IMG/VR virus record: IMGVR_UViG_2879765931_000001
Reading direction: 5' to 3' (one strand)
DNA length: 30,734 bases
Source of the DNA: a virus
Lineage: Duplodnaviria > Heunggongvirae > Uroviricota > Caudoviricetes
In this document: piece after piece, positions 5,723 through 8,700 of the stretch
Position numbering within the stretch: the first letter of the stretch is position 1
Layout of the letters: each line of letters opens with the position of its first letter
The notes under the pieces: model-generated
The model's input: the letters and a program-made list of their open reading frames with translations, nothing else
Told to the model about the DNA's origin: nothing
Database searches by the model: none
Position numbers and translations under genes: made by a program

Positions 5723-8700
5723 TCAGCTGATACTGATACCTGCTGTGGATTTCTTCATCACAACAACCAGCAAATCGCTGATACTTGCTGTGGGATACCA
5801 GCCATTTACCAGCCATGCCGATACAGAAAACTCCAGCGTCATGTGACCGTGACCGGCAGGCATATCAATAACACCCGTATATATCAGCGTATTATCCAGG
5901 GTCGTTCGGTTATAAATTTCAGCACCGTTTTTCTTCACTATCAGGCGGCATGACGAATAAATATTGTTATTCTTCCGCTCATGTTTAGCACCGCGAAACG
6001 CCACCGCGGGAATAACAATTTGCCGATCAAACGGCTGATCGTCATAAACCCTGACGGTAATGGTCCCTGATGGCCACCTCTCCGGTGCCCGGGAGTCCCG
6101 TGGGAAAGGTTTGCCCACTGTTTTAACGAGATCGCCTTCAATCTGGTTCGCGGACAATTTTCCCAGAACCCGACAGTTCTTATTAATCGTGACGTTGTTG
6201 AGCGTCCCGGAGTTCGCGTTCACGTTACCGCTGATATCGGCATTTTTCGCCGTCAGCCGTCCGCCAGGTGTCAGGGAAAATGCCGGAGGATTACCGCCGC
6301 TGGTAATGGTCGGAGCCGTCAGGCGTTTCAGGAACACGTCGTTCATGAATATCTGATCGCCCTGACCAACAAACATCGGCTTTGTGTTGCCATTCGCAGG
6401 ATTAATCATCGCAATCCTGTCTGCCGCCAGCAGCACCTGACTCTGCATTCCTGCTGGCGTATTCTCAATACCGGCACCGATACCACGCAATATAAAGGCG
6501 TCCGTCCTTCATCTGTTGCAGCTTCACAGCCCACATGCTGTTCAGGTTATTATTTGTATCAACCTGAACTTTCTGTATCTGCTGGATTGCAGCACTCTGA
6601 TTTTCCAGTTTTTTATTGACGGTTTGCGTGATTTCATTGCTGACATTCGTAATGGACGTCCTGATTTCAGTCAGGTCCGGCGCAAGCTGACCGTTATCAA
6701 TCTGCGTCCACAACTCCTTGCCGAGATGCGTTTTATTGATCAACCCTTTATAAAAACTCAGATAACCTTCCGCATCATCGCTCGCCCGACCGACGGCCTC
6801 CACAAATGCCGATTTGCCAACGGTGTTCACACTGCGAACGTAAAAATAATAATCATGGCCCGGCCTGATATTGATACTGGCGGCTATCCAGTACAGCGCC
6901 GTGCCAAGATAGCGGGCGCTGGTTTCAACCTGCCTGATATCCGCAATCCGCTTTTCCGAAAACCAGAACTCAAACTGCACCGTCGGGTCATATACAGCCA
7001 GTTTCGGGACCACCGTTATCTGAAAATACCCCGGTATCAGTTCAATAGTGACAGGCGCTGCCGGTGCCGCAATCCGGAACGATACCGACGCCGGATCGCC
7101 CTGCTGCCCCCGGGCATTTACCGCCCGGACTGTCAGACTGTAATTCCCCAGCGCCAGCTGCCTGAAGCGGTATGTGGTTTCCGTCGTCCTGGCTGTGCTG
7201 ACCAGCCGCTCACTGCCGTCGTCCGCTGCCACGGTCAGGCGAAGCAGGAAGCTCACACCCTTCACCACCTTCGGCGTGTCCCATCGCGCCAGCACCTGAT
7301 ATTCCCCGCTGTCTGCGGTGACTTCGGCGGTCAGATGCTGCACCGCTGGCGGCGTGACACCATTCACCGTGCCGCGCCGGTCACCGTCAAAGTGTGCCCC
7401 GTTATCCACGATGGCCTCTTTTTCCGGCACATGCTGCACGGCGGTGATGGCATACGTGCCGTCGTCGTTCTCACGGATACTCACGCAGCGGAACAGGCGC
7501 TGGCGCAGCGTCGGCAGCTTCAGCCCCCACACGCTGTATTCTGCAACGCCGTCAGGAACCCGGCTCACTTTCACCTTCACGCCGTCGGTGACGGACTGAA
7601 CCTCCACGCTGACCGGATTGCCATTTCCGTCAACCAAGCTTATCAGCGTGGTACCGGAGGACGGCAGCGTGATTTCACGGTCGAGCGTCAGCGTCCGGGT
7701 CTGGCTGTTCACCGCCAGTACGCGACCACCGGTGCTGATACCGGCATAATCATCATCGCAGATTTCAATGACATCACCCGGTACATGGCGAAGCCCTTCT
7801 GCGCCGACGCTGAAGTCCACGGTCTGCGTTTCCAGCAGTTCCGTTTTAATCAGCCACAGCCCGGCGCGGTGCGCCTGTCCCCGGCTGGTACAGCCAAAGG
7901 CATCCATCTTCGTGACGTTACGACCGTAACGGACAATGGCCTGCGTGTCCTCCACAAGCTCTGTCGCCGTCTCATGACCGTTGTCCGGATCAATCCAGTT
8001 CACCTCAACGACATTATGGCGGTCCTTCAGGGCGCTGAAGCTGTAGCGGAACGGCGCGCCATCATCCGGCATCACCACATTACTGCGGTTATAGGTCCAC
8101 ACTTTATCCGACGGTCGGTCCTGCACGAACGTCAGCGTCTGCCCGTTCCATACCGGCATACAGCGCATCGCCGAGCAGAAATCACTGAGAACATCCCACG
8201 CCTTACGCTGTGTGGTCAGGTAAGCGTTACAGGTGATGCGCGGCTCCGTGCCGCCAAATCCGTCCGGCACTGACTGGTCGCAGTACTGGCCGATGACATA
8301 CAGCGCCCATTTGTCCACATCTGCCGCACCAAGACGTTTCCCCATGCCGTAGCGCGGATGAGTGAGCATGTCCCACAGACACCAGGCCATGTTGTTGCTG
8401 TATGCTGGCTTAAGCGTTCCGTCCCAGATACCGCTGTATTGCCGCGTCTGCGGGTTATAGTTCGACGGCACCTGCAGAATGCGCCCGCGAAGATGATAAT
8501 TGCGACTCACCTGCTGGTTACCGAACTGCTCTGAATCCACCTGCACGCCGACCAGCGCCGTGTTCGGGTAGCACTGTTTCACATCGATGATTTCGGTGTA
8601 CGACGACCAGAGCGTTTTGTTCTGCAGCTGGTCTGTGGTGCTGTCCGGTGTCATCCTGCGCATCCGGATATTAAACGGGCGCGGCGGCAGGTTACCCACC

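What the first reader, a model, noticed from the sequence alone, without database searches (positions are those of the whole stretch)
6465..6500. Single-base frameshift splitting J
Both halves of J are well conserved, but the frames switch where the minus strand reads gcgtggtatc (an in-frame version would be gcgggtatc). The site is not a long homopolymer, so a genuine inactivating mutation is more likely than a homopolymer sequencing artefact.
Basis: seen in the sequence. Interest (0 to 1): 0.35.

Follow-up and report, generated by a model that had tools for sequence, protein, structure and literature searches.

The report
Real frameshift in prophage tail gene J
One extra base really does split the tail-tip gene J of a decayed lambda-like prophage in what is almost certainly Shigella flexneri. 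It is a heritable mutation shared by hundreds of assemblies, not a sequencing error, and it is ordinary prophage decay.

Summary
On the minus strand J is split into 6465..9203 (912 aa) and 5723..6490 (255 aa). Against intact J genes of E. coli (98.7-99.5% identical) the only indel in 3,551 nt is one extra base at window 6485: GCG[T]GGTATC versus GCGGGTATC.

- The exact 912-aa truncated product is on record on 704 contigs, named Shigella flexneri.
- The exact repaired 1159-aa protein is on record on at least 1000 S. flexneri contigs.
- In eight loci from four complete genomes, the two alleles differ consistently only by this one base across J.

So the frameshift is a recent polymorphism of one S. 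flexneri sublineage. It cuts J after Ala906 (about lambda J Ala878). The product keeps the hub, FNIII domains and helical shaft but loses the straight fibre and the receptor-binding domain.

The prophage is dead anyway. It has an IS1 in the capsid gene, an 8.6-kb deletion of the portal, terminase and lysis genes, and a split tape-measure gene.

One twist is modestly interesting. Two prophage copies at different chromosomal sites carry the identical frameshift and linked markers, which suggests gene conversion between them. Overall this is ordinary and of low interest.

The parts
6485..6485 (-). The inserted base (T on the coding strand, A on the + strand). It lies between codon 906 (GCG, Ala) and what was codon 907 (GGT, Gly).
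   Evidence: It is the only indel in the 3,551-nt alignment to intact J genes. It is present in 10 of 10 loci of the frameshift lineage and absent from 13 of 13 intact loci.
6465..9203 (-). J N-terminal ORF of 912 aa: residues 1-906 of J plus the out-of-frame tail WYRCRY, ending at TGA 6467-6465.
   Evidence: Translation. Pfam FNIII-A_GpJ, Phage-tail_3, Ig_J and Ig_J_second all score above their cut-offs. The exact sequence is on record on 704 contigs.
5723..6490 (-). J C-terminal ORF of 255 aa as called from TTG 6490. The J-derived reading frame is 5723-6484. It encodes the rest of the tail-tip fibre and the receptor-binding domain.
   Evidence: Translation. Pfam Phage_Tail_Tip matches only profile positions 36-138, so it is cut at its N-terminus; Ig_GpJ_C is complete. 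The exact sequence is on record on 777 contigs.
5723..9203 (-). The whole J pseudogene (lambda gpJ / TipJ tail tip attachment protein).
   Evidence: Repaired translation is 1159 aa. It has 7 aa differences from the annotated gpJ WP_197939856.1 and is identical to S. flexneri Q81ZS6. The closely related intact J of L001 matches PDB 8iyk_J (lambda J) with E = 0.
12489..12497 (-). A second frameshift in the same prophage. An A9 run on the coding strand (T9 on the + strand), where relatives have A8, splits the tape-measure gene into 12440..14347 and 11578..12408.
   Evidence: It is private to the window and the identical L004; the 19 other S. flexneri loci have A8.
13983..13990 (-). Junction of a 303-bp in-frame deletion in the tape-measure gene (912 aa if unsplit, against 1013 aa). 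It is completely linked to the J frameshift.
18002..18765 (+). IS1 inserted in the major capsid gene.
   Evidence: BLAST break with a duplicated target. Pfam DDE_Tnp_IS1. Absent from the same locus in L007 and L011-L013.
20147..20155 (.). Junction of an 8.6-kb deletion relative to the intact E. coli VL46 prophage. It removes most of the S49 protease, the portal, the terminase small and large subunits, most of the lysozyme gene and the other lysis gene.
   Evidence: (L003 23857 joins 32459), read against the annotation.
1060..2823 (+). Intact ipaH (587 aa), a type III secretion effector E3 ligase. It is the prophage cargo that probably explains why the island is retained.
   Evidence: Pfam NEL and LRR_TTSS. 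Annotated as ipaH in related loci.

Best explanation
This is a genuine, heritable one-base insertion that turned the tail-tip gene J of a lambda-like, ipaH-carrying cryptic prophage into a pseudogene. The prophage sits next to ybhB and bioA in a sublineage of Shigella flexneri. The extra T follows codon 906. Translation then reads six wrong residues (WYRCRY) and stops. The product keeps the hub domains, the FNIII/Ig domains and the alpha-helical shaft. It lacks almost all of the straight central fibre and the C-terminal receptor-binding domain, so it could not mediate adsorption. Shown: the lesion, its heritability, and its position in the domain map. Inferred: the mutation is neutral decay. 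The prophage cannot make particles anyway, and the island is probably kept for ipaH. The two halves look 'well conserved' simply because the mutation is very recent.
For: - Single indel at 6485 against intact homologues.
- The exact truncated protein is on 704 contigs and in 798 blocks, named S. flexneri.
- The exact repaired protein is on at least 1000 contigs and in 4943 blocks, named S. flexneri Q81ZS6.
- Across J, the only consistent difference between four frameshift and four intact loci is the inserted T. The one other variable site (window 7637) is private to one genome.
- None of 1,651 complete E. coli genomes that match the 81-nt stretch has the extra base; the best match is 80/81.
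- The frameshift lies inside Pfam Phage_Tail_Tip (residues 872-1000 of intact J) and upstream of the receptor-binding domain Ig_GpJ_C (1030-1159).
- It aligns to about residue 878 of lambda J. That is just past the helical shaft (809-861) and at the top of the beta-prism fibre described in PMC11101478.
- Other lesions in the same prophage: IS1 in the capsid gene, an 8.6-kb deletion of the portal, terminase and lysis genes, a tape-measure frameshift and a 303-bp tape-measure deletion, and an IS3-family element in the early region.
Against: - No reads were available, so the state of this particular assembly at this base rests on agreement with other assemblies.
- Two near-identical copies exist per genome. 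Short-read assemblies could therefore mix signal from the two copies.
- Neutrality is inferred, not measured.
Confidence: 0.9

Rival explanations
1. Sequencing or assembly artefact: the extra base is not in the real genome.
For: There is a likely example of such an error elsewhere in the window. The A9 versus A8 run in the tape-measure gene is private to this assembly.
Against: - The J site is not a homopolymer.
- The identical truncated product occurs on 704 contigs from many independent NCBI and Logan assemblies. These include complete genomes and drafts.
- All 10 fetched loci of that lineage, from 7 assemblies, carry it.
Confidence: 0.02
2. The split is functional. Either a +1 ribosomal frameshift before the TGA restores full-length J, or the two pieces (the second starting at TTG 6490) assemble without a covalent link.
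For: - The TTG at 6490 opens the second ORF, which overlaps the end of the first by 26 nt, and gene callers do call it.
- A +1 shift at UAU UGA would restore the frame with only six substituted residues (read from the sequence).
Against: - No slippery motif lies at or before the stop, and no homopolymer is present.
- The fetched intact homologues are single-frame at this site, and none of 1,651 matching complete E. coli genomes carries the extra base. The two-frame layout is therefore not a conserved design.
- The break lies inside a domain of a trimeric beta-prism fibre.
- The prophage lacks portal, terminase and an intact capsid gene.
Confidence: 0.02
3. Only one of the two prophage copies truly carries the frameshift. 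Its appearance in both copies comes from repeat collapse or cross-polishing between about 14.5 kb of near-identical sequence.
For: - The two copies are nearly identical over about 14.5 kb.
- Strain-private SNPs (window 7637 and 3963) appear in both copies of CP026871.1. Polishing with multi-mapped reads could produce that pattern.
Against: - Two complete genomes and one draft assembly each place a frameshift copy at both loci, with locus-specific flanks.
- Locus-specific SNPs at the repeat edges are preserved in the two complete genomes, so those assemblers did separate the copies.
- In the two genomes for which both loci were fetched, the intact allele is likewise in both copies.
Confidence: 0.08

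Closest known systems
Bacteriophage lambda gpJ (tip attachment protein J; PDB 8iyk, 8xcg, 8xcj)
   Same: The Pfam domain order is the same (FNIII-A_GpJ, Phage-tail_3, Ig_J, Ig_J_second, Phage_Tail_Tip, Ig_GpJ_C). The closely related intact J of L001 matches lambda J in the PDB with E = 0. The position in the tail module is the same, upstream of lom and stf.
   Different: The gene here is broken after residue 906 (about lambda 878). The straight central fibre and the receptor-binding domain are no longer attached to the hub.
Shigella flexneri ipaH islands (cryptic lambdoid prophages that carry ipaH effector genes)
   Same: An intact ipaH lies directly next to the tail-fibre genes, and the phage genes are degraded by IS elements and deletions. 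ipaH islands I-V are described as previously characterised islands of shigellae in PMC4226921.
   Different: Nothing essential differs. This is one specific lesion inside such an island, and it is polymorphic within the species.
Intact S. flexneri J allele (UniProt Q81ZS6_SHIFL)
   Same: The amino-acid sequence is identical once base 6485 is removed. It occupies the same two chromosomal loci.
   Different: It lacks the extra T. Its lineage also keeps the full 1013-aa tape measure but has a 4-bp deletion in the side tail fibre gene.

Membership tests
Lambda gpJ / TipJ tail tip attachment protein | Characteristic domain series from hub to receptor-binding domain | tested here: met
   All six Pfam families score above their curated cut-offs, four on the 912-aa ORF and two on the 255-aa ORF.
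Lambda gpJ / TipJ tail tip attachment protein | Sequence homology to structurally solved lambda J | tested here: met
   phmmer with the closely related intact J of L001 (7 aa differences from the repaired window J) gives E = 0 to 8iyk_J. The C-terminal region matches 8xcj and 9wca.
Lambda gpJ / TipJ tail tip attachment protein | Place in the tail module (tape measure, M, L, K, I, J, lom, stf) | tested here: met
   The gene order in the window and in the related annotated loci is the same.
Lambda gpJ / TipJ tail tip attachment protein | One uninterrupted reading frame of about 1130-1160 codons | tested here: not met
   The gene is split into 912 + 255 aa by a +1 insertion at 6485. It is therefore a J pseudogene, not a functional member.
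Frameshift pseudogene (heritable) | An indel whose length is not a multiple of three relative to intact orthologues, causing a premature stop | tested here: met
   A one-base insertion with a stop seven codons later.
Frameshift pseudogene (heritable) | The same lesion appears in independent assemblies or isolates | tested here: met
   704 contigs hold the exact truncated product. 10 of 10 fetched loci from 7 assemblies carry it.
Homopolymer sequencing artefact | It lies in a mononucleotide run and is private to one assembly | tested here: not met
   The inserted T is flanked by G on both sides and is shared widely. By contrast, the tape-measure A9 run at 12489-12497 does meet both criteria.
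Programmed ribosomal frameshift (for example lambda G/GT, prfB, IS1 insAB) | A slippery motif at the shift site, and a two-frame layout conserved among homologues | tested here: not met
   No slippery sequence lies in GCG UGG UAU CGG UGC CGG UAU UGA. The intact homologues fetched are single-frame at this site, and none of 1,651 matching complete E. coli genomes has the extra base.
S. flexneri ipaH island (cryptic prophage) | An ipaH effector gene next to degraded lambdoid phage genes in the chromosome | tested here: met
   ipaH of 587 aa with NEL and LRR_TTSS domains. IS1, an IS3-family element, and deletions are present. The window is 100% identical over 19.2 kb to CP026871.1, where ybhB, bioA and bioB flank the island; only the ybhB end lies inside the window.

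The most novel reading that the evidence does not exclude
The frameshift did not merely arise once in one prophage. It was copied, with a linked 303-bp tape-measure deletion and two SNPs, from one ipaH prophage island to a second island at a distant chromosomal site (the ybhB/bio locus and the yecD/aspS locus). The mechanism would be intragenomic gene conversion over at least 7 kb. The two islands would then evolve in concert, and loss-of-function lesions would be homogenised across copies. The sister lineage shows the mirror image: J is intact in both copies, but both copies carry a 4-bp deletion in stf.
Probability: 0.55. Interest if true: 0.3.

Novelty: already known. Interest (0 to 1): 0.12.

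Why it matters
It matters little beyond annotation. J in this locus should be marked as a pseudogene, not as two 'host specificity' genes. The inserted T, with the linked 303-bp tape-measure deletion, is a clean marker of one S. flexneri sublineage. The side observation is a small but tidy illustration of how repeated prophage remnants in Shigella stay homogeneous: two distant ipaH islands share lineage-specific lesions, which suggests gene conversion. It is also a caution, because variant calls in these repeats cannot be assigned to one copy from short reads.

Tried and rejected
- **GTDB scan.** I scanned the species-representative genomes for the exact 33-nt mutant sequence and found nothing. 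This is probably because S. flexneri is not represented separately there. It says only that no species representative carries the allele.
- **Sequencing artefact.** Rejected on the number of independent assemblies.
- **Programmed frameshift or two-piece J.** Rejected for lack of a slippery site and lack of conservation of the split.
- **Slippage as the mutational mechanism.** Rejected because the inserted T has no identical neighbour. I saw no convincing templating repeat nearby, so the mutational mechanism remains unknown.
- **Not done.** Structure prediction, the large protein-database homology searches and RNA tools were not used, because the question did not need them. The S. flexneri phylogroup that carries the allele was not determined, because the tools show no strain metadata for those records.

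Full report

Yes. The minus strand around the site reads CTT TAT ATT GCG TGG TAT CGG TGC CGG TAT TGA. A 912-aa ORF (6465..9203) ends at that TGA. A 255-aa ORF (5723..6490) continues in the next frame.

A megablast of the 3,551-nt J region against complete E. coli genomes found thousands of J homologues. Nine cover the whole query at 98.1-99.5% identity. The best is 99.5% identical, spans 3,550 nt and is annotated as an uninterrupted gpJ of 1159 aa.

I aligned the window with two of these genes. The alignment has exactly one indel: an extra T on the coding strand at window 6485, GCG[T]GGTATC versus GCGGGTATC. The inserted base has G on both sides, so it is neither in a homopolymer nor a duplication of a neighbour.

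**2. What is the gene?**

It is a lambda-type tip attachment protein J.
- The 912-aa piece carries FNIII-A_GpJ, Phage-tail_3, Ig_J and Ig_J_second.
- The 255-aa piece carries an N-terminally cut Phage_Tail_Tip (profile positions 36-138 of 139) and a complete Ig_GpJ_C receptor-binding domain.
- In the intact homologue, Phage_Tail_Tip spans residues 872-1000 and the receptor-binding domain spans 1030-1159.
- That intact homologue matches the solved lambda J (8iyk_J) with E = 0.

The break follows Ala906, which aligns to about Ala878 of lambda J. According to PMC11101478, lambda gpJ consists of hub domains, two FNIII domains, an alpha-helical shaft (residues 809-861), a beta-prism straight fibre and the receptor-binding domain. 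The truncated product therefore keeps the hub, FNIII domains and shaft. It loses nearly all of the straight fibre and the receptor-binding domain.

**3. Artefact or mutation?**

It is a mutation.
- The exact 912-aa truncated protein is in the public protein collection on 704 contigs (798 blocks of the contig index). NCBI names it 'host specificity protein [Shigella flexneri]'.
- The 255-aa ORF is on 777 contigs.
- Ten loci fetched from seven assemblies, both complete genomes and drafts, all carry the mutant string.
- The window is 100% identical over 19,203 nt to one of them, CP026871.1. The window is therefore almost certainly S. flexneri.

The mutant allele was not found outside S. flexneri.
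- None of 1,651 complete E. coli genomes that match the 81-nt stretch has the extra base. The best match is 80/81 over an 80-nt span.
- No GTDB species representative has the mutant 33-mer.

**4. How old and how widespread is it?**

Deleting base 6485 gives a 1159-aa protein. Its exact sequence is also on record as Q81ZS6_SHIFL, 'host specificity protein J [Shigella]'. It is on at least 1000 contigs and in 4943 blocks. The intact allele is therefore the commoner one in S. flexneri, and the frameshift marks a minority sublineage.

I compared eight loci from four complete genomes. Across J, the only consistent difference between frameshift and intact alleles is the inserted T. The one other variable site is a SNP private to one genome.

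**5. What is the context?**

Relative to the intact E. coli VL46 prophage (annotation), the window's prophage shows these changes:
- An IS1 in the major capsid gene (18002-18765).
- An 8.6-kb deletion with its junction at 20147-20155. It removes most of the S49 protease, the portal, both terminase subunits, most of the lysozyme gene and the other lysis gene.
- A 303-bp in-frame deletion in the tape-measure gene (junction about 13983-13990).
- A further one-base expansion of an A8 run in the tape-measure gene (12489-12497), which splits it.
- An IS3-family element (28932-30136) next to an integrase fragment.

An intact ipaH effector gene (1060-2823; NEL and LRR_TTSS domains) sits beside the tail-fibre genes. 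The host gene ybhB lies at 1-477. This is the anatomy of a Shigella ipaH island. Such islands are cited as previously characterised in PMC4226921.

The element cannot form particles, so losing J has no obvious cost. I infer neutral decay, with the island retained for ipaH.

**6. A side finding: two copies share the lesion**

The frameshift lineage has two copies of this tail module per genome. One is next to ipaH(587 aa)-ybhB-bioA, which is the window's locus. The other is next to ipaH(583 aa)-dinI-yecD-aspS. Both carry the identical 912 + 255 split.

Intact-J genomes have the same two loci. In the two genomes for which both loci were fetched (CP055138.1, CP034931.1), J is intact in both copies.

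A marker table over 20 S. flexneri loci shows the following.
- The T insertion is completely linked to the 303-bp tape-measure deletion and to SNPs at window 13844 and 10252, in both locus types.
- The intact-J loci instead carry a 4-bp deletion in stf (equivalent to window 3941-3944), in both copies where both were fetched.
- Strain-private SNPs (window 7637 and 3963) occur in both copies of CP026871.1.
- Locus-specific differences are confined to the repeat edges, and some tracts are mosaic.

The simplest reading is concerted evolution by gene conversion between two repeats of about 14.5 kb. Cross-polishing in the assemblies is a possible confounder, and I could not exclude it without reads.

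**7. Rivals**

- Sequencing artefact: rejected (point 3).
- Programmed +1 frameshifting or a functional two-piece J: no slippery motif is present, the split is not conserved among homologues, and the break lies inside a domain of a trimeric fibre.

A contrast within the window is instructive. The A9 run in the tape-measure gene is in a homopolymer and is private to this assembly. That is what an artefact, or a very recent slippage event, would look like.

**8. Verdict**

This is an ordinary, already-catalogued kind of event: a frameshift pseudogene in a cryptic Shigella prophage. It has value as a lineage marker, and it carries a modestly interesting hint of gene conversion between two ipaH islands. 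Interest is low.

Noticed in passing
window 12489-12497: The tape-measure gene is also frameshifted, by a T9 run on the + strand (A9 on the coding strand) where 19 other S. flexneri loci have 8. It is private to this assembly, so it is either a homopolymer sequencing error or a very recent slippage mutation.
   Followed up: partly
window ~13983-13990: A 303-bp in-frame deletion in the tape-measure gene (912 aa against 1013 aa) is completely linked to the J frameshift in all 10 frameshift-lineage loci and absent from all 10 intact-J loci. If the tail were functional, it would be predicted to be shorter.
   Followed up: partly
window 18002-18765: An IS1 is inserted in the major capsid gene with a short target duplication. 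It is absent from the same locus in other strains of the lineage (L007, L011-L013).
   Followed up: partly
window 20147-20155: This is the junction of an 8.6-kb deletion relative to the E. coli VL46 prophage. It fuses the start of the lysozyme gene to the last 97 codons of the S49 protease gene, and removes the portal, terminase and lysis genes.
   Followed up: partly
window 1828-16376 versus L005/L006 (the yecD/aspS locus of the same genomes): There are two copies of about 14.5 kb of the tail module plus the ipaH-proximal region per genome, at distant loci. They share lineage-specific and even strain-private variants, while locus-specific SNPs survive only at the edges. This is a signature of gene conversion, or possibly of assembly cross-polishing.
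   Followed up: partly
window 3941-3944 (stf, 3577-5034): The side tail fibre gene is intact here (485 aa). In the intact-J S. flexneri loci it carries a 4-bp deletion (a 367-aa call or none), in both copies where both were fetched. One frameshift-J locus (L010) has both lesions, which suggests recombination between haplotypes.
   Followed up: partly
window 21414-21724: The prophage carries a cluster of four tRNA genes (Gly-tcc, Thr-tgt, Arg-tct and a CAT-anticodon tRNA) upstream of the Q antiterminator region. ARAGORN calls the last one Met, whereas RefSeq annotates the homologous gene in VL46 as Ile, presumably a lysidine-modified tRNA-Ile2.
   Followed up: no
window 28932-30734: An IS3-family element (HTH_Tnp_1 ORF 29798-30136 and rve ORF 28932-29771) abuts a phage integrase ORF (30147-30734). 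That ORF sits at the window edge and looks N-terminally truncated, because its Pfam match starts at profile position 2 only 18 residues into the ORF.
   Followed up: no
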